A DNA stretch of 64,000 nt from Escherichia coli phage Wa28. The notes under the pieces were generated by a model, which did not search any database, was not told the origin of the DNA, and saw only the letters and a list, made by a program, of their open reading frames with translations. The stretch lies in the sequence record LC788710.1. One strand, written 5' to 3'. Of this stretch, positions 30,036 to 38,861 are shown one piece after another; positions within the stretch are counted from its first letter, which is position 1, and every line of letters begins with the position of its first letter. Position numbers and translations under genes: made by a program.

Positions 30036-30890
30036 TTACACCGTAAATGGATATGCAATAGCAGGATGGTGTTCATAGCCACGAACAGTAAAATCATCCT
30101 TACTTACCCACGTTAATACATCATCCAAAGTTCTAATATTTGGATTGATTTCTAAAGTAGGAGGTGCAAAAGGTTCACGATCGAATTGCTTGTGCTCCAT
30201 CAGAACATTATACTGATCTTCATAGATATGAAGATTAATAATCTTTTGACGAGCAATACCTGGCTTAAGACCTGTAATCTGTGCCATAATAGCTAGAAGT
30301 GCATAGCATTGCACCATATTAAATACTTGGCCCAGCAAGAAATCATTAGACCTCTGGAAAGAGTTTAGGTATAGTGTATCACCTAAAATAGAGAATTGAT
30401 GGGTATGCATACACGGACGTAGGCATCCTTTACGAAATTCCCCAGGGTTCCAAAAAGTTAAAATTTCTCCACGATCGTCAATCCCTCTTTTCAAATTATG
30501 ATAGACTTTGGCTAACTGATCAAATACCATACCATCAGAATTAGTCCAATGACGTCCTTGAACACCATAGACTCGTCCCATATCATCCTCGCCTTTACGG
30601 AATGGATTACCTAGCCAGGCAATATTTTCATTTGCATTAGCATTCCATGTATTAACACCAATAGCGCGGAATTGTGCTGCTGAGTCGTACCCACGGAGAT
30701 ATCCGATCATTTCCATTATTGCTTGTTTAGCAAATGCTTTACGAGTAGTTACTAGCGGCAGTTCTCCTGCTCCTACGTTAAAGGTAAAGTCTGCATCAAT
30801 AATGGTTAGGCAACGAACCCCTGTTCTAGGATTCGTTACCCATACACCCTCTTCAAGAATACGTTTTCCAGTTTCAATATATTGCTTCAT
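30036..30890 (-). CDS. thyA: thymidylate synthase
   Basis: 284 aa; active-site region [11 protein letters not shown] and overall ThyA-like sequence. Confidence 0.85.
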
Positions 30891-31417
30891 TTAAATATCA
30901 CCAATTCTTGTAAGAATGAAAGCGTTTTATCTGCATTCTGTCCTGCTACATAATCCATTCTAGTTGCCATTGAATTAGTTAAAGTAATGTGATGATGCAG
31001 ATGTACATCAGCAGATAATGGTGTAGCTGAAGTAATAGTAGAGATATACGCCATATCTAGATGATTTTTGACATACATTTCAAGAAGCAGAGTTGCTCCC
31101 CCTAATACTACAGTTACTTCTTCCTTGAGGAAATCAGGTAGACTGTATCCAATGTTACTTATGCGTGTGGCTGATCCTACAGAGTTAGGTAGTGGTCTAT
31201 TTGCATAAATAAATAGGTCAGAATCTCCTAGTATTCTTTTTTGCAGAGTCTCAGGGAAGGCTAACCAAGTTCCTGCACCTACAATAATATTATCAGGTGC
31301 TAGAGAATCCAAAGTAGTATAGAAGATATCTAGTTCTTCTTTGAAAGAACCCCAGGGGAGCTTACCATTGAGGCCGAACTCCCCATTCGGCCCAGTTGCA
31401 TAGATTGCTGCTATCAT
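30887..31417 (-). CDS. dihydrofolate reductase
   Basis: 176 aa; N-terminal [22 protein letters not shown] typical of DHFR; adjacent to thyA. Confidence 0.7.
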
Positions 31418-32562
31418 TAGAACATGCCCTCAAATTCGTTACCCAGATCTTTCAGGGTATCAGCAGAAGTTTCAGTTACCTGACCCACACGATATGCTGC
31501 ACCAATCTGGATTTCTTGTGGGGCAGGCTGTAAGGAAGTAGTATCCAGCCAGTTCATAATCCACGGAATAGGGTTCTTAGTAATTACAGGTAAGTGGCTT
31601 GGCCATTCTACACCAATGTGCATAAATGCGTTACGTCCTACAAAGTAAAGGTATTCTTCAAGCAGTTCTGCATTCAAACCAATCAGACTACGGCCTTTAA
31701 AGATAAAGTGACCCCATTCAATCTCAGTTTTCAGAGTTTTCAGGAGTTGTGCTGGTGCTTTAGCTAATGCTTCATCTACCAGATCTTTATCAAACTGCTG
31801 GAACATAATCTGGATGATAGCTTTAGACATTTGAGTATGCAGAGCTTCATCTTTAGCGATTAATTGCAGGTTCTTAGCAATACCTTGCAGAATATCGTTC
31901 TCTGCTAGAGCAAAGGTACATGCAAAAGATGCGTAGAACTGCATTGCTTCCAGACCGTAGATTGCAAAGTAAGCATCTAACAGCTTAGCCTGAGTTTCAC
32001 GTTTAACTTCAGGGAACTCAGTTTCTGGATAAGTATTATCACCACGATGATCACGTACTGCAAGGAAATACTGACCTAACAGATACAATTCATCAAACAG
32101 TTCAACAGAATCTGCGATACGTGCAAATGCTTCTTGGTTTTTAGTTACAGAATCAATAAATTCTGCTGGGTCAGTCAGAACGTTACGAATAATGTTACTA
32201 TACGCACGGCTATGTAGATCTTCGAAGTAGCTCCACTGCTTGAGCATACCTTCCAATTCAGGACGGCTTACAAGTGGCATAATAGCTGCCTCAGGAGCAC
32301 GACTAATGAAAGAATCTGTTTGAACCTGCCAAGCTAAGTTCAGCAGAGTGATTTCTTGTATTTCTCTTGGAAGATTAGGCCATTGCTTTTTGTCACTTTC
32401 TAGACTGATTTCAGTTTCAGTCCAAAACTGGCTCCTCTGTAATAGTGCGAGTCGTTCTAGCTCTGGATGAGCAACACGAACATAGTCTGCTACTCCCAGG
32501 GCATCTCCGAGAAATAGCTCTTCAGAATCAGGATTCCAGTTCAGATTTAGTAAGGTTGTCAT
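31417..32562 (-). CDS. nrdB: ribonucleotide reductase class Ia beta subunit
   Basis: 381 aa; NrdB-like length and ferritin-like helical pattern; adjacent to nrdA. Confidence 0.8.
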   Translation of the reverse strand: MTTLLNLNWNPDSEELFLGDALGVADYVRVAHPELERLALLQRSQFWTETEISLESDKKQWPNLPREIQEITLLNLAWQVQTDSFISRAPEAAIMPLVSRPELEGMLKQWSYFEDLHSRAYSNIIRNVLTDPAEFIDSVTKNQEAFARIADSVELFDELYLLGQYFLAVRDHRGDNTYPETEFPEVKRETQAKLLDAYFAIYGLEAMQFYASFACTFALAENDILQGIAKNLQLIAKDEALHTQMSKAIIQIMFQQFDKDLVDEALAKAPAQLLKTLKTEIEWGHFIFKGRSLIGLNAELLEEYLYFVGRNAFMHIGVEWPSHLPVITKNPIPWIMNWLDTTSLQPAPQEIQIGAAYRVGQVTETSADTLKDLGNEFEGMF

Positions 32563-32565
32563 TAA

Positions 32566-33084
32566 TTATTCTCCATTATTAGCGTATTCGCCATGAAATT
32601 CTTTAAGTTTAATATCTCTATGTTCTAGAGCTTTTTCTAGAGGCATTGCGGAAGATCTGTAAACAGTACCGTTGTGTGTTATCCTAACCCTCCAGTTTCC
32701 TGAACTAAGAGGCTCTAGGTTTTTATGTCCATGGGTATTGTTTTTACCGGCTCCCCTATTTTGGGCATTACCAGCATCGGTTGATTCTCGTAGATTTAAA
32801 GGATGGTTATTAAGTTTATTTGTATCTTTATGGTCTACTGTCTTAGTTGGGTAATATCCATAATAGAGACAGAAGATTACTACATGATTTCTTAATTCCC
32901 ATCTATAACCTTCCACGTTAAGTCGGAAGCATAGGTAGCCATTTCCATTGACGGCTCCTACAGGTTTTCCAGCAAATCTAGTATTAAATCCACCTTTATT
33001 AGTCTCTCTTGGCTTCCAATAGAGAGTATCTTCTCTGAGTTCTAGATATTTCTCTAGAAATTCTTTTGTTAGTTGAGGTTTCAC
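32566..33084 (-). CDS. HNH homing endonuclease (freestanding, between nrdB and nrdA)
   Basis: 172 aa; GYLCFRL...VDHKDTNKLNNHPLNLR plus AP2-like C-terminal region. Confidence 0.65.
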   Translation of the reverse strand: MKPQLTKEFLEKYLELREDTLYWKPRETNKGGFNTRFAGKPVGAVNGNGYLCFRLNVEGYRWELRNHVVIFCLYYGYYPTKTVDHKDTNKLNNHPLNLRESTDAGNAQNRGAGKNNTHGHKNLEPLSSGNWRVRITHNGTVYRSSAMPLEKALEHRDIKLKEFHGEYANNGE

Positions 33085-33108
33085 AGTATATCTCCTTAAT
33101 ATAGAGAT

Positions 33109-33137
33109 ATTATAGCAAATCTGGTAGCGATTAGCAA
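33109..33137 (-). promoter_or_regulatory. early promoter
   Basis: Conserved module (-35 TTGCTA, -10 TATAAT). Confidence 0.6.
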
Positions 33138-33183
33138 GTAAAATTTCAAAGAAAAAGGAGACCCGAAGATCTCCTTGTTTTTA

Positions 33184-35514
33184 TTATAGGTTACAACCAC
33201 CGGATGCACAACCTGCTGCTTCTTCACCAGCTCCACCACCATTTTCAGTGTTGAAGTTAGCGTAGTACCAAGTTTTCCAACCATACTTAACAGCAGTCAT
33301 GAAGTCACGAACTACTACTGGGCCAGGAATAATTTCATTCTCAAACTTGGTGTAGTCATAGTACATATTCGTACTTATAGACTGACTGAAGAATTTCTGC
33401 ATGGTTGCTACCCATTTGATCCACTCGATACGATCTACATCATAAGCCAGTTTATAGCTCATTAATGTATCCCAATCAGTTGCACCTGGAGCAATTGCAA
33501 TTACTTTATTCACTGCACTACCCTTGATAGATACAATCTTACGAGGCGGTTCAATAGAGTTAGTAACACCTAGCAGTACAGAGGAACTTTCACCCGGCAT
33601 CTGAGCAGTCAGAACGGAGTTACGCATACCATATTTCAGGATATCTGCACGCAGAGATTCCCAATCCATTTCTAGATCAACAGTTACCAGTTCATCAACA
33701 GTTTTCTTGTACGTGTCGATTACCAGAGTCCCTTTGGATGGCTTAGTACGATTAAACCAGTCACATGCACCTTGTTCTTTAGCCAGACGTACAGAGGCTT
33801 TGTGCAGGAAGTAGGACAGCTTCTCAGCTTCACGGTGAATCCAGTTACGGGCTTCAACACCTTCATAAGCCAAACCTTCTGCTGCCATTGCACCTGCTGC
33901 ATTCATCAGACCAATACCAACGTTACGACGTTTCTTAGCCGTGTATTCCATGGTTGGGAATGGATAATCCTGAATCTCGATGATTGTATCAACGAATTTC
34001 AGAAGGATGTAGCAAGTTTTCTCCCATTCAGCCAGAGATTCCATGCGACCTAGTACAACACCACCTAAGTTACACAGAGATACTTCACCAATGTCCTCTG
34101 GACGCATATCGTCTAACTGATCTTGGGTCTTATACAGTTCCGTAATGTGATGGAATGGACGGGTTGGCTGAGTAATTTCAACACAAAGGTTGGTCATACG
34201 AATCGGGTCAAGGAAGTTACCATGACGGTTAGATTCACCAATGTGATGAGCATACATACGCCCTGTTTCCATACGGATACGTAACCAAGTATCTAGGATT
34301 TCTTTTGCAGAGATTCTAGGAGCTGCTGGAATTGTTTTTCCTTCGTGGTCGATCTTTGTAAGAGATGCCACACGTTTCTCCGCTGCCACGTAGATTTCTT
34401 CAAACTTAGCCTCATCTTCATCATAAAACGCTTCATGAACTTCTGGTGCGTAGAAGTAGGACATTAGCGTAATATCTTCGTTTTTCAGGTAACGTTTTAA
34501 CAGAAGGTTGTTAAAGCTCAGAGAGTAATCCATTTTATCGATTTTATTCTCGTCTGTAGCACGTTGTTGTTTAACCTGCATCAATTGAATGATTTCAGGA
34601 TCGAAGTATGGATAAGACACAGTAGCAGAACCGCCACGGGTTTGCTGAGTGTTAGCTTTTACTGAACGGTCAATGTGTCGATAATATGGCAGTTTTCCGG
34701 AATGCGGGAATGCCCCATTTCGCACCGGATCAGCAATTGATCGGCTTTCAAGATGATACCCGATTCCCGCTCGGGCTGCGACCATTTTGAAGACGATATG
34801 CTCGGCTGTGTCGATTGAATCGAGGGTATCAGTACTATCAACAAGACAACAAGAAGCAAAACCGCGGTCGCTGCTCCTAAGACCCACGAGAGGTGGAGTC
34901 GGCACGTTGATTTTATGGAGTGACATTGCGTTGTAGAGGTCGATTGCATCGAGAATTGTCCAGTTAGGTTGAGATAACATCGCCATTGCCATACCCATAT
35001 AGGCAAACTGCGGGGTTTCATAAATTTCACCAGTTGCAATATTACGACGAGAATACTTGTCGAAGAACTGTTTCAGTCCACCACTGGTGAATAAACGATC
35101 ACGATCATGATCAATAACTTGGTTCAGAGCGTCAAACTGATCATCGCTAATCCATGCACTCATGTCTTCCCAAGCGCCTGCACGAACCATATGATCGTGG
35201 AAGAAACGCAGAGAAGGAGGTTCAAAGGAATCATATAGGCGTTTACGCATCTGCGCAAGACGTAATTCCTTTGCTACAGTATCATATGCTGGGTTGTCTT
35301 TGATAAGACCTTCAGCGGCTTTAATTAACACATCTTGGAGTGTATCGGAGTCTACAACACCTTTGGGTAGATTTTTCAGGGCAGCCATAACTACGGCAGA
35401 CCAACTTACGTCAGTATCTTTACATGCCCATGCAGCCCAATCATTGAGTTTTTCAGGAGCAAAGTCCTGAACAGTACCGTCACGTTTAATTACTTTTTCG
35501 ATGCGATGGCTCAT
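33184..35514 (-). CDS. nrdA: ribonucleotide reductase class Ia alpha subunit; start moved to second Met
   Basis: Strong similarity to NrdA including FASCCLVDSTDTLDSI active-site region; ATG at 35512-35514 with AAGGAAA SD; track start at 35574 lies inside the promoter. Confidence 0.85.
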   Translation of the reverse strand: MSHRIEKVIKRDGTVQDFAPEKLNDWAAWACKDTDVSWSAVVMAALKNLPKGVVDSDTLQDVLIKAAEGLIKDNPAYDTVAKELRLAQMRKRLYDSFEPPSLRFFHDHMVRAGAWEDMSAWISDDQFDALNQVIDHDRDRLFTSGGLKQFFDKYSRRNIATGEIYETPQFAYMGMAMAMLSQPNWTILDAIDLYNAMSLHKINVPTPPLVGLRSSDRGFASCCLVDSTDTLDSIDTAEHIVFKMVAARAGIGYHLESRSIADPVRNGAFPHSGKLPYYRHIDRSVKANTQQTRGGSATVSYPYFDPEIIQLMQVKQQRATDENKIDKMDYSLSFNNLLLKRYLKNEDITLMSYFYAPEVHEAFYDEDEAKFEEIYVAAEKRVASLTKIDHEGKTIPAAPRISAKEILDTWLRIRMETGRMYAHHIGESNRHGNFLDPIRMTNLCVEITQPTRPFHHITELYKTQDQLDDMRPEDIGEVSLCNLGGVVLGRMESLAEWEKTCYILLKFVDTIIEIQDYPFPTMEYTAKKRRNVGIGLMNAAGAMAAEGLAYEGVEARNWIHREAEKLSYFLHKASVRLAKEQGACDWFNRTKPSKGTLVIDTYKKTVDELVTVDLEMDWESLRADILKYGMRNSVLTAQMPGESSSVLLGVTNSIEPPRKIVSIKGSAVNKVIAIAPGATDWDTLMSYKLAYDVDRIEWIKWVATMQKFFSQSISTNMYYDYTKFENEIIPGPVVVRDFMTAVKYGWKTWYYANFNTENGGGAGEEAAGCASGGCNL

Positions 35515-35550
35515 TTGGCTTTCCTTTTTGTAGTTATCAGGATTTAGGAA

Positions 35551-35579
35551 ATATTCTACTTTGTTTTGGGTCATTTTGC
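35551..35579 (-). promoter_or_regulatory. nrdA promoter (-35 TTGCAA, 17 bp, -10 TAGAAT)
   Basis: Reverse complement gives TTGCAA-N17-TAGAAT. Confidence 0.5.
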
Positions 35580-35589
35580 AAGTACAATT

Positions 35590-35630
35590 TTACAGATAAA
35601 AAGAGCCCGGATATTTTCATACCCAGGCTC
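35590..35630 (-). terminator. rho-independent terminator
   Basis: GAGCCCGG...CCAGGCTC hairpin followed on minus strand by CTTTTTATCTG. Confidence 0.5.
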
Positions 35631-36986: not shown

Positions 36987-38861
36987 ATGAATCGCAATGA
37001 AGAACTAAAGTATAAAGGAATGCAGTCCTTGATTCGAAACTGCAAAGAAATTATCGAAGGTTCAGCAGATGAAGAGCTGCTGTTTAATAATGCCAATAAG
37101 CCCTCAGAACGTTTCCCTACACAAAGGGATATGCTTGCAGGGGAATTGAGTAAATATCTGATTCTGGAAGAAATGCCGATCCAGATTCGAAATGCTCACA
37201 TGATTGGTGATATTCACTTCCATGATGCTGATTACGCTGCGTTAGGTATGACTAACTGTTGCCTGGTTGCTTTGGAAGATATGTTGAAGAATGGTATGAA
37301 GGTTGGTAATGCTGAAATCAGTACGCCAAACTCTATCACTACTGCGGCTGCTATTACAGCTCAGATTATCACTCAGGTTAGCTCACACCAATATGGTGGT
37401 ACTTCTGTAGACCGATTAGATGAAGTATTGGCTCCTTATGTTCGTAAGTCTTATGATAAGAATCATGCGTTTGCAAAACGTTGGACTAAGGATGAAGCCA
37501 AAGCATCTGTAATGGCTACGGAAATGACTGAGAAAGAAGTTTACGATGCCTGCCAGGGTCTAGAGTACGAAATCAATACGATGTTCAACTCTAATGGTCA
37601 GAGTCCATTTATTACCTTTGGTTTCGGTTTAGGAACTTCTTGGGAAGCACGTCTTGTACAGAAAGCAATCTTAGAAGTGCGTATGGATGGTTTGGGTATC
37701 AATAAACGTACTGCTATCTTCCCTAAACTGGTATTTGTTCTACGTGACGGCGTAAACATGAAACCTGGCGATGTTAACTATGATATCAAGAAGTTAGCTA
37801 TGAAGTGTACTGCTGAACGTATGTATCCGGACTATATCAGCTATGATAAGGTTGTAGAAGTTACGGGGGACTACAAAGTCTCTATGGGCTGTCGTTCATT
37901 CCTGGCTGCTGCGGAAGATGGTGAAACTTCTGGTCGTAACAACTTAGGCGTTGTTTCCGTAAACCTTCCTCGAATCGCTATCGAAGCGGAAGGAAATATT
38001 GATCTATTCTTCGATCTGCTTGAGCTGCGTGTGGATACCGCGTTAAAAGCATTGGAGTGGAGGGTTGATCGCTTAAAATACATTCAAGCTAAAGCTGCGC
38101 CCATCCTCTATATGTCAGGAGCCTTTGGATTACGTCTGGGGCCAGATGAATATGTATTTGATCATTTCTACAAGCGTGCTTCTGTATCCCTAGGATATAT
38201 TGGCTGCCACGAAATGTTGCAGCTCATGTTTGGTAAAGATGTAGATACAATGTCTGAGTCTTGTATCAAGTTCGTTCAACGTGTGCTACAATACATGCGT
38301 GATCGTGCTGATCAGAAGAAGGAAGAGACTCAATTAGGGTATAGTCTGTATGCTACACCATCTGAATCTCTATGTGATCGCTTCTGTCGCCTAGACCGTG
38401 AGTATTTCCCAGAGCATGAAGATATTCTGGCTAAAGGATATTACACTAATTCCCATCACCTTGATGTAGAACGTAAGGTTGCTCCAAATGTGAAGTTTGA
38501 TTATGAGTCTAACTTTACTCCTATTGCTTCTGGTGGGTGCATTTCCTATGTGGAATTACCTGATATGAAACGATTCCCTGATGCATTGGAATGGGTTATT
38601 AACTATGCTGCAAGTAAAGTTCATTACTTCGGTATTAATACTCCAGTAGACTCTTGTGGGGAATGCGGGTTCTTGGGTGAAACTATAGCTTCTGAGGATG
38701 GTTTCAAATGTCCAATTTGTGGCAATCATGATCCTGAGACTCTTGAGGTAACTCGTCGAGTTTGTGGATATCTTGGAAATCCAGGTGCTCGTCCGTTTAA
38801 CCCAGGTAAACAACATGAGGTTATGGGTCGAGTGAAACATCAAGACATTCGCGCTAAATAA
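36987..38861 (+). CDS. nrdD: anaerobic ribonucleoside-triphosphate reductase (class III)
   Basis: 624 aa; C-terminal CPICGNHD zinc site and RRVCGYLG glycyl radical motif. Confidence 0.85.
   Translation: MNRNEELKYKGMQSLIRNCKEIIEGSADEELLFNNANKPSERFPTQRDMLAGELSKYLILEEMPIQIRNAHMIGDIHFHDADYAALGMTNCCLVALEDMLKNGMKVGNAEISTPNSITTAAAITAQIITQVSSHQYGGTSVDRLDEVLAPYVRKSYDKNHAFAKRWTKDEAKASVMATEMTEKEVYDACQGLEYEINTMFNSNGQSPFITFGFGLGTSWEARLVQKAILEVRMDGLGINKRTAIFPKLVFVLRDGVNMKPGDVNYDIKKLAMKCTAERMYPDYISYDKVVEVTGDYKVSMGCRSFLAAAEDGETSGRNNLGVVSVNLPRIAIEAEGNIDLFFDLLELRVDTALKALEWRVDRLKYIQAKAAPILYMSGAFGLRLGPDEYVFDHFYKRASVSLGYIGCHEMLQLMFGKDVDTMSESCIKFVQRVLQYMRDRADQKKEETQLGYSLYATPSESLCDRFCRLDREYFPEHEDILAKGYYTNSHHLDVERKVAPNVKFDYESNFTPIASGGCISYVELPDMKRFPDALEWVINYAASKVHYFGINTPVDSCGECGFLGETIASEDGFKCPICGNHDPETLEVTRRVCGYLGNPGARPFNPGKQHEVMGRVKHQDIRAK

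What the first reader, a model, noticed from the sequence alone, without database searches (positions are those of the whole stretch)
32566..33084. Freestanding HNH endonuclease wedged between nrdB and nrdA
Ribonucleotide reductase genes are classic targets for homing endonucleases and introns in phages. Here an HNH/AP2-type endonuclease gene occupies the nrdB-nrdA junction with its own promoter, which suggests intronless homing or a past gene-conversion event.
Basis: partly seen in the sequence, partly recalled or inferred. Interest (0 to 1): 0.4.

Follow-up and report, generated by a model that had tools for sequence, protein, structure and literature searches.

The report
Mobile HNH endonuclease gene between nrdA/nrdB
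This is an ordinary selfish "homing endonuclease" gene of a T5-like phage that has slipped in between the promoter and the start of the ribonucleotide reductase small-subunit gene, at a spot where related phages carry either nothing or one of three other such genes; the kind of element and this location are already described.

Summary
ORF 32566..33084 (-), 172 aa, is an intact HNH_3 endonuclease gene between nrdA and nrdB of a T5-like phage. The window is 100% identical here to Salmonella phages BSP22A, SH9 and NBSal002.

The predicted fold is an I-HmuI-like HNH core followed by an AP2-like DNA-binding domain.

Presence/absence polymorphism is clear:
- This gene ("class A") is in 33 of about 447 T5-like records.
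- Three other distantly related HNH genes (28-43% aa identity) occupy the same intergenic region in 75, 33 and 48 records.
- About 58% of junctions are empty.

One correction is needed. The promoter and terminator upstream are not the endonuclease's own. Both are present unchanged in empty junctions, where the promoter drives nrdB. The gene sits just after the -10 box, replaces the 29-nt nrdB leader, and supplies a new nrdB ribosome-binding site.

There is also a gene-conversion footprint. Compared with the endonuclease-free phage PSa2, nrdB has 64 mismatches in its first 239 nt and 4 in the next 721. The gene is under strong purifying selection (dN/dS 0.01-0.04) and is more conserved than its flanks across diverged backbones.

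The arrangement is published for T5 and AKFV33 and parallels T4 mobE. Cleavage activity is untested. Interest is low.

The parts
32566..33084 (-). Freestanding HNH homing endonuclease gene ('class A'), 172 aa, GTG start
   Evidence: ORF. Pfam HNH_3 and PHROG 99. Intact in 5 divergent carriers, dN/dS 0.01-0.04.
32890..33084 (-). N-terminal beta-rich domain (residues ~1-65), presumed DNA-binding as in I-HmuI
   Evidence: AF2 model, pLDDT 94.4, strands 14-17, 20-23, 51-57 and 60-65. Full-length Foldseek match to I-HmuI 1U3E.
32764..32886 (-). HNH_3 catalytic core (residues 67-107): D84-H85 ... N93 ... N97-L98-R99 ... N106
   Evidence: Pfam. Sequence match to I-HmuI 1U3E. H85 invariant, and D84, N93, N97, R99, N106 and N109 at least 90% conserved, in 65 homologues.
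32584..32724 (-). C-terminal AP2-like domain (residues ~121-167: three beta strands plus a long helix)
   Evidence: AF2 secondary structure. Foldseek to Arabidopsis TEM1 AP2 (7ET4/7ET5, prob 0.99-1.0, rmsd 1.8-2.8 A over 54-62 columns). 29 of 65 homologues hit Pfam AP2 at the equivalent position. No direct Pfam AP2 hit for this protein.
33092..33097 (-). Shine-Dalgarno AAGGAG of the endonuclease gene, 7 nt before the GTG
   Evidence: Read from the sequence.
33088..33110 (-). Possible 8-bp hairpin whose 3' arm covers the endonuclease SD and whose 5' arm abuts the -10 box (weak evidence)
   Evidence: RNA fold -7.5 kcal/mol, z=-1.56, 14 of 200 shuffles fold as well. A similar hairpin is in the T5-type gene, but not in class C or in the metagenomic relative.
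33109..33137 (-). Resident nrdB promoter (TTGCTA-17-TGnTATAAT), captured by the endonuclease gene
   Evidence: Consensus scan. Identical sequence in empty junctions of PSa2 and GreteKellenberger, where it precedes the nrdB leader. Annotated as a promoter in T5 and AKFV33.
33155..33176 (-). Intrinsic terminator-like hairpin after nrdA; a backbone element, not part of the insert
   Evidence: Scan. Present in empty junctions.
32571..32574 (-). Replacement Shine-Dalgarno (GGAG) for nrdB, inside the last codons of the endonuclease gene. The endonuclease stop (32566-32568) lies 3 nt before the nrdB ATG (32562).
   Evidence: Read from the sequence. The native 29-nt nrdB leader of empty junctions is absent.
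32324..32562 (-). First 239 nt of nrdB: divergent tract linked to the endonuclease (inferred co-conversion tract)
   Evidence: 64 mismatches to PSa2 in nt 1-239 against 4 in nt 240-960, Fisher P=6e-37. This allele is at least 95% identical in only 35 records, 31 of them class-A carriers.
32515..32531 (-). nrdB nt 32-48 (codons 11-16): densest cluster of fixed differences between class-A carriers and empty alleles; candidate recognition or immunity determinant (inference)
   Evidence: 7 of the 19 fixed differences fall in these 17 nt; none in the 400 nt upstream of the insertion point.
33184..35574 (-). nrdA (class Ia RNR large subunit), upstream flank
   Evidence: Pfam.
31417..32562 (-). nrdB (class Ia RNR small subunit), downstream flank, now the second cistron behind the endonuclease gene
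   Evidence: Pfam.

Best explanation
The ORF is a functional, freestanding HNH homing endonuclease gene of the phage HNH_3 + AP2-like family, the family that includes the T5 'Tfl/heg' enzymes. It occupies a homing-endonuclease hotspot in the nrdA-nrdB spacer of T5-like phages. It sits directly after the -10 box of the resident nrdB promoter, so it is transcribed as the first cistron of a new endonuclease-nrdB message. Its 3' end provides the nrdB ribosome-binding site. Inferred mechanism: in a mixed infection with an endonuclease-free relative, the protein binds a site at or just inside the 5' end of that relative's nrdB. It cuts there, most likely nicking one strand, as I-HmuI and T4 MobE do. 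Repair by recombination from the endonuclease-bearing genome then copies the gene and some flanking nrdB sequence into the recipient (intronless homing with co-conversion). The window genome looks like the product of such an event: a PSa2-like backbone carrying the gene plus about 239 nt of foreign nrdB 5' sequence. Shown here: gene identity, fold, insertion anatomy, polymorphism, mosaic tract and purifying selection. Inferred: cleavage, nick versus double-strand break, the target position, and that homing rather than ordinary recombination moved it.
For: Identity and fold: HNH_3 domain above Pfam's cut-off. AF2 model pLDDT 94.4, best PDB match I-HmuI at E=4.5e-4, then AP2 domains at prob 0.99-1.0. 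Catalytic His85 invariant and the Asn/Asp positions at least 90% conserved in 65 homologues. Insertion anatomy: empty junctions keep terminator, promoter and a 29-nt leader; classes A, B and C all begin right after TATAATAT and end at the nrdB ATG. Polymorphism: class A 33, B 75, C 33 and D 48 records of about 447; 16 of 27 IMG/VR loci are empty. Mobility: the gene is 96-100% identical in HZ_ZJUN2 while the flanks are 80-92%. A 74%-identical copy sits in the same niche in a metagenomic phage whose NrdB is only 56% identical. Conversion footprint: 64 mismatches in nrdB nt 1-239 against 4 in nt 240-960 versus PSa2, P=6e-37. That nrdB allele is almost confined to class-A carriers, and each endonuclease class has its own nrdB N-terminal allele. 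Selection: dN/dS 0.01-0.04. Precedent: T4 MobE, in the same nrdA-nrdB niche, nicks the 5' region of T2 nrdB and drives co-conversion (PMC2790892). The T5/AKFV33 nrdA-HNH-nrdB arrangement is described in PMC3326045.
Against: No biochemical or genetic test of cleavage or homing exists for this lineage. The linked nrdB allele is not exclusive to class A: phages 1-23 and mar003J3 have it with a class D gene and the native leader. Two class-A carriers (HZ_ZJUN2, EH7) have other nrdB 5' alleles. So the tract could reflect ordinary mosaic recombination rather than endonuclease-driven conversion. Strong purifying selection is also what a domesticated protein would show. Record counts include GenBank/RefSeq duplicates and closely related isolates.
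Confidence: 0.82

Rival explanations
1. Domesticated protein. The HNH/AP2 protein no longer homes. It is kept because it benefits the phage, for example by excluding co-infecting relatives or by setting nrdB expression, since it now lies between the nrdB promoter and nrdB.
For: Very strong purifying selection, dN/dS 0.01-0.04. It is the obligatory first cistron, and nrdB's SD is embedded in it. The gene is more conserved than NrdB in a distant relative: 74% against 56% aa identity.
Against: About 58% of close relatives do without any gene here, and others use unrelated-in-sequence lineages at the same spot. That pattern is typical of selfish elements, not of a needed function. Exclusion of competitors is in any case the phenotype of an active homing endonuclease.
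Confidence: 0.08
2. Vertical inheritance with repeated loss. An ancestral T5-like phage carried an HNH gene here. Classes A, B and C are its diverged descendants, and empty sites arose by loss. The divergent nrdB tract is ordinary phage mosaicism, with no endonuclease-driven transfer.
For: Classes A, B and C are homologous (28-37% aa identity) and share exactly the same left junction after TATAATATCT, with similar leaders.
Against: Empty sites carry a distinct, conserved 29-nt leader with its own SD that simple deletion cannot produce. The gene is 96-100% identical across backbones that are only 80-92% identical. The mismatch breakpoint in nrdB abuts the gene and is extremely sharp. Class D shows a mirror-image divergent nrdA 3' end on its side.
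Confidence: 0.08
3. Decaying remnant. The gene is a defunct endonuclease on its way to loss, like I-TevIII in T4.
For: Decay does occur at this hotspot. The class B copy in phage bastian has a 1-nt insertion that frameshifts its C-terminal domain relative to T5 hegH.
Against: The window copy has a full-length ORF, a strong SD and all conserved catalytic residues. There is 1 amino-acid change per 23 nucleotide changes against TrudiGerster, and 7 per 73 against EH7.
Confidence: 0.02

Closest known systems
T5 hegH (putative H-N-H endonuclease P-TflVIII, T5.095) and AKFV33 orf096
   Same: Same genomic niche: inserted after the nrdB promoter between nrdA and nrdB, ending at the nrdB start codon. 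Same HNH_3 family and size (165-174 aa). The arrangement is described in PMC3326045.
   Different: Only 28% (T5/bastian type) and 37% (AKFV33 type) amino-acid identity, with no DNA similarity. They are separate lineages with different linked nrdB 5' alleles. None has been characterised biochemically.
T4 MobE (freestanding HNH endonuclease between nrdA and nrdB)
   Same: Freestanding HNH gene in the nrdA-nrdB spacer. MobE nicks the 5' region of nrdB in the endonuclease-free phage T2, and recombination points map to the nrdB 5' end (PMC2790892). This matches the position of the divergent tract seen here.
   Different: No detectable sequence similarity. MobE belongs to Pfam HNH PF01844, not HNH_3, and shows no AP2 match. 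MobE is promoterless and co-transcribed with nrdA, whereas this gene sits directly behind a strong promoter.
I-HmuI (Bacillus phage SPO1, PDB 1U3E)
   Same: Best sequence match (E=0.01) and best structural match (E=4.5e-4, 171 aligned columns) in the PDB. Same N-terminal beta domain plus HNH core with the His...Asn...Asn motif. I-HmuI is a strand-specific nicking enzyme (my own knowledge).
   Different: I-HmuI is intron-encoded and ends in a helix-turn-helix domain. This protein is freestanding and ends in an AP2-like domain. Identity is about 20%.
T5 F-TflI/II/IV and hegF (F-TflVI) endonucleases of the tRNA region
   Same: Same protein family. T5 hegF is the best T5 match at 37% identity over 97% of the length. 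F-TflI, II and IV are reported as site-specific endonucleases (Akulenko et al. 2004, cited in PMC3326045 and PMC10644984).
   Different: Different genomic location and presumably different targets. No close identity.

Membership tests
HNH / His-Me finger endonucleases, Pfam HNH_3 (PF13392) | Significant match to the family profile above the curated cut-off | tested here: met
   41.4 bits against a cut-off of 24.8, E=1.1e-10, residues 67-107.
HNH / His-Me finger endonucleases, Pfam HNH_3 (PF13392) | Catalytic His and metal-binding/structural Asn/Asp residues present | tested here: met
   D84-H85, N93, N97, N106 and N109 are present. H85 is invariant and the others at least 90% conserved in 65 homologues. 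They align with the I-HmuI motif.
HNH / His-Me finger endonucleases, Pfam HNH_3 (PF13392) | Beta-beta-alpha-metal fold | tested here: met
   AF2 pLDDT 94.4, with strands 82-85 and 98-101 followed by helix 103-109. Foldseek hits I-HmuI and I-PpoI. This is a prediction, not a solved structure.
AP2 DNA-binding domain (PF00847) | Match of this protein to the Pfam AP2 profile | tested here: not met
   No AP2 hit even at E up to 10, for this protein or for the class B, C and D proteins.
AP2 DNA-binding domain (PF00847) | Three-stranded sheet packed on a helix, homologous to AP2 domains | tested here: met
   Model residues 123-167 match TEM1 AP2 (prob 0.99-1.0, rmsd 1.8-2.8 A). 29 of 65 full-length homologues hit AP2 at the aligned position, but only P0048, of the five homologues re-scanned individually, is above Pfam's cut-off.
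Freestanding homing endonuclease gene (intronless homing) | Not embedded in an intron or intein; lies between genes | tested here: met
   Separate ORF between the nrdA stop and the nrdB start.
Freestanding homing endonuclease gene (intronless homing) | Presence/absence polymorphism at a fixed site among close relatives | tested here: met
   33 of about 447 records carry it and about 58% are empty. Junction spans are about 706 nt against 1221 nt.
Freestanding homing endonuclease gene (intronless homing) | Gene history differs from flanks; co-conversion tract next to the gene | tested here: met
   The gene is 96-100% identical against flanks of 80-92% in HZ_ZJUN2. The metagenomic relative has 74% gene identity against 56% for NrdB. 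The 239-nt nrdB tract has P=6e-37. This is consistent with homing but does not prove it.
Freestanding homing endonuclease gene (intronless homing) | Site-specific cleavage of the endonuclease-free allele and resistance of the carrier allele | not testable with these tools
   Only an indirect lead: 7 fixed differences in nrdB nt 32-48 between carriers and empties.
Freestanding homing endonuclease gene (intronless homing) | Super-Mendelian inheritance in mixed infection, dependent on the catalytic motif | not testable with these tools
   Needs phage crosses.
T4 Mob family (MobE) | Sequence homology to MobE | tested here: not met
   Best BLASTP segment is 19 aa at E=0.04. MobE hits PF01844, not PF13392. 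It is a functional analogue only.

The most novel reading that the evidence does not exclude
The T5-like nrdA-nrdB spacer may be an arena where four HNH/AP2 lineages compete. Each would be tied to its own nrdB codon 8-16 allele, which serves as target in rivals and as immunity in the carrier. The endonucleases would then drive amino-acid diversification of an essential enzyme's N-terminus, and the natural allele series would give a direct read-out of how AP2-HNH enzymes recognise DNA. A stronger version is that the class A gene has become a required regulator of nrdB expression, because it owns nrdB's promoter-proximal position and its SD.
Probability: 0.12. Interest if true: 0.45.

Novelty: already known. 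Interest (0 to 1): 0.22.

Why it matters
It matters little beyond annotation. Identical copies are already labelled 'homing endonuclease' or 'H-N-H-endonuclease' in GenBank (S116, SE24, BSP22A, IrmaTschudi). The nrdA-HNH-nrdB arrangement in T5-like phages, and its analogy to T4 mobE, is published (PMC3326045).

This check adds four things:
- The upstream promoter belongs to nrdB and was captured by the inserted gene.
- Four distinct HNH lineages use the same spacer.
- The window genome carries a sharply bounded 239-nt foreign nrdB tract.
- nrdB codons 11-16 are a concrete candidate target or immunity site.

Carriers and empty-site relatives both exist in the BASEL E. coli K-12 phage collection, so homing and target specificity could be tested directly.

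Tried and rejected
- **Pfam AP2 on the protein itself and on the class B, C and D proteins.** No hit even at E up to 10. The AP2 assignment therefore rests on homologues and on the predicted fold.
- **First structure prediction, 4-sequence alignment.** Unusable, pLDDT 55. It was repeated with 65 sequences.
- **First protein homologue search with the single sequence.** Only 3 hits. A profile search was needed.
- **Homology to T4 MobE.** None.
- **Other copies in the window.** tblastn with four endonuclease classes and a motif scan found only this gene.
- **SD-sequestering hairpin as a translational control.** It is present in classes A and B, but it is no better than about 7% of shuffles and is absent in class C and in the metagenomic relative. 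I kept it only as a weak idea.
- **Fixed carrier-versus-empty differences upstream of the insertion point.** None in 400 nt, so there is no sign of a target on the nrdA side for class A.
- **The idea that this is the enzyme making the natural nicks of T5-type genomes.** Rejected by inference: only about 7% of T5-like genomes carry it, whereas the nicks, from my own knowledge, are general in the group.
- **A first attempt at the diagnostic-position script.** It used the wrong class labels and was redone.

Full report
**What is there**

The window is a T5-like phage (Demerecviridae, Epseptimavirus type). Region 31400-35600 is 100% identical to Salmonella phages BSP22A, SH9, NBSal002 and others.

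It is 172 aa long, starts with GTG, and has an AAGGAG ribosome-binding site 7 nt upstream. It matches Pfam HNH_3 above the curated cut-off (residues 67-107, E=1.1e-10) and PHROG 99 'HNH endonuclease' (E=2e-40).

It lies between nrdA (33184..35574) and nrdB (31417..32562), both on the minus strand and both confirmed by Pfam. It is the only gene of this type in the 64-kb window.

**Protein architecture**

By sequence, the only PDB relative is the nicking homing endonuclease I-HmuI (1U3E, E=0.01). The alignment covers the motif VDHKD.NK.NN...NLR......N.

A single-sequence homologue search gave 3 hits. A profile search gave 154. In an alignment of 65 near-full-length homologues, His85 is invariant, and D84, N93, N97, R99, N106 and N109 are at least 90% conserved.

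AlphaFold2 with a 4-sequence alignment failed (pLDDT 55). With the 65-sequence alignment it gave pLDDT 94.4 and pTM 0.85. The model has three parts:
- an N-terminal beta-rich domain;
- a beta-beta-alpha HNH core;
- a C-terminal unit of three strands plus a long helix.

Foldseek against the PDB puts I-HmuI first (E=4.5e-4, 171 columns). I-PpoI and the Arabidopsis TEM1 AP2 domain follow; the TEM1 match has prob 0.99-1.0 and rmsd 1.8-2.8 A over 54-62 columns.

The window protein itself has no Pfam AP2 hit, even at E up to 10. However, 29 of the 65 homologues do, at the equivalent C-terminal position. 'HNH/AP2-type' is therefore right at the level of fold and family, though not by a direct profile match.

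**The promoter is not the endonuclease's own**

The best promoter-like site in the region is TTGCTA-17-TATAAT with a TG extension, at 33137..33109. A terminator hairpin lies at 33176..33155. Both sit between nrdA and the ORF.

Endonuclease-free relatives (PSa2, GreteKellenberger) have the identical terminator and promoter. In them these are followed by a 29-nt leader (TCCTGAAATAGTGAGAAAGAGGAAAATCA) and the nrdB ATG. In the window, the endonuclease gene begins right after TATAATAT and replaces that leader. Its last codons contain a new GGAG for nrdB, and its stop codon lies 3 nt before the nrdB ATG.

So the gene was placed behind the resident nrdB promoter, creating an endonuclease-nrdB two-gene message. 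T5 and AKFV33 records annotate the same promoter.

A hairpin that could hide the endonuclease's ribosome-binding site in read-through transcripts exists in classes A and B. It is statistically weak and not conserved in class C or in the metagenomic relative.

**Presence/absence and multiple occupants**

About 447 phage records contain this nrdAB region. The DNA of this gene, which I call class A, is in only 33 of them.

A junction query returned discrete span classes. The span is about 706 nt when the junction is empty and 1221 nt for class A. Spans of about 1175, 1207 and 1225 nt correspond to other HNH genes.

I fetched representatives of each class:

| Class | Example phages | Position in the spacer | Records |
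|---|---|---|---|
| A | window, IrmaTschudi, TrudiGerster | directly after the -10 box | 33 |
| B | T5 (hegH / P-TflVIII), bastian | same point as A | 75 |
| C | AKFV33, Spc35 | same point as A | 33 |
| D | cott162, 1-23, mar003J3 | upstream of the promoter, replacing the terminator | 48 |

The four proteins are homologous but only 28-43% identical. About 58% of junctions are left empty. In an independent IMG/VR sample, 16 of 27 loci were empty. Counts are of records and include GenBank/RefSeq duplicates.

**Signs of mobility**

- In HZ_ZJUN2 the gene is 96-100% identical to the window copy, while the flanking nrd genes are 80-92% identical.
- A 74%-identical copy (P0002) sits in the same niche in metagenomic contigs from a much more distant phage. 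There NrdB is only 56% identical, and nrdA has an insertion of about 290 aa.
- The gene is under strong purifying selection. dN/dS is 0.01-0.04 among class A alleles that differ at up to 14% of nucleotides.

**Gene-conversion footprint**

Against the empty-site phage PSa2, the window's nrdB has 64 mismatches in nt 1-239 and 4 in nt 240-960 (Fisher P=6e-37). Eleven of the first 80 residues differ.

This nrdB 5' allele is at least 95% identical in only 35 records. Thirty-one of those are class-A carriers. All other T5-like phages are at most 87% identical, and most are about 78%.

Each endonuclease class has its own NrdB N-terminal variant:
- empty junctions: NWDHTNAD;
- class B: mostly NWDHTNKD;
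- class C: EWDHTNAD;
- class A: NWNPDSEE.

Class D, which abuts nrdA, shows a divergent nrdA 3' end instead.

Between five class-A carriers and 17 empties there are 19 fixed differences in nrdB nt 1-300. Seven of them fall in nt 32-48. There are none in the 400 nt upstream of the insertion point.

Two caveats apply:
- Phages 1-23 and mar003J3 have the class-A-type nrdB allele with a class D gene and the native leader.
- HZ_ZJUN2 and EH7 carry class A with other nrdB alleles.

The simplest history is that the allele is native to a 1-23-like lineage in which class A resided. The gene then carried about 239 nt of that allele into a PSa2-like backbone.

**Mechanism (inferred)**

By analogy with I-HmuI and with T4 MobE, the protein most likely nicks the 5' region of nrdB in endonuclease-free co-infecting relatives. 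MobE occupies the same niche, nicks the non-coding strand in the 5' region of T2 nrdB, and produces recombination points there (PMC2790892). Recombinational repair would then copy the gene and adjacent nrdB sequence into the recipient. None of this has been tested for this lineage.

**Comparison with what is known, and novelty**

The nrdA-HNH-nrdB arrangement in T5 and AKFV33, the idea of a hotspot, and the mobE analogy are all published (PMC3326045). Homing endonuclease genes are recognised as the main source of differences among T5-like genomes (PMC10644984). Identical copies of this gene are already annotated as homing endonuclease in several records.

MobE itself is not a sequence relative. 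The closest T5 paralogue is hegF at 37% identity.

The finding is real, but it is a known kind of element at a known location.

Noticed in passing
L003 (Salmonella phage bastian) 1825-2325, compared with L006 (T5) 1537-2061: The class B (T5 hegH-type) endonuclease gene of bastian has one extra A in an A-run. This frameshifts the C-terminal AP2-like domain relative to T5. It is either a decaying copy or a sequencing error.
   Followed up: partly
L013 688-3924 (metagenomic contig MUNK22-1 scaffold_317): nrdA is 1078 aa. It carries an insertion of about 290 aa between residues matching window NrdA 311 and 294-onward, probably an intein. A second HNH_3 gene lies just upstream of nrdA (117-605). 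Phage SelmaRatti is also annotated with an intein-containing nrdA (H117).
   Followed up: partly
L012 (phage mar003J3) 1106-1618: A further HNH gene (annotated hegJ_1, P-TflX) sits between nrdB and frd, so nrdB is flanked by endonuclease genes on both sides in that phage.
   Followed up: no
window 33096..33284 (-) and protein P0001: A 62-aa ORF overlaps the nrdA 3' end, the terminator and the promoter. The 220-aa database protein P0001 (misterkot_77) extends the endonuclease N-terminally through the promoter and terminator. Both look like annotation artefacts; the GTG at 33084 with its AAGGAG site is the credible start.
   Followed up: partly
OR067837.1 (Salmonella phage KKP 3953) 30435-30631, hit H74: A 200-nt stretch of the class A gene (nt 131-332, 83% identity) occurs at a different place in another T5-like genome. 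This suggests exchange of segments between endonuclease genes at different loci.
   Followed up: no
L008 7508-8195 (HZ_ZJUN2) and L009 7606-8214 (EH7), equivalent to window ~36987 onward: Where the window has nrdD (36987..38861, +), these relatives are annotated with a GIY-YIG nuclease or a 'putative endonuclease' at the start of that region. This may be another endonuclease insertion site next to the anaerobic reductase gene.
   Followed up: no
L017/L018 4001-4513: The 37%-identical homologue P0003 sits immediately upstream of, and overlapping, a DNA polymerase A gene in unrelated phage contigs. It has the same 'endonuclease as first cistron of an essential gene' layout.
   Followed up: no
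window 31417-31560 (nrdB nt ~1015-1146): The last ~130 nt of nrdB are also markedly divergent from PSa2 and most relatives (17 mismatches against almost none in the middle of the gene). This is a second mosaic boundary, next to frd; some relatives carry an HNH gene there.
   Followed up: no
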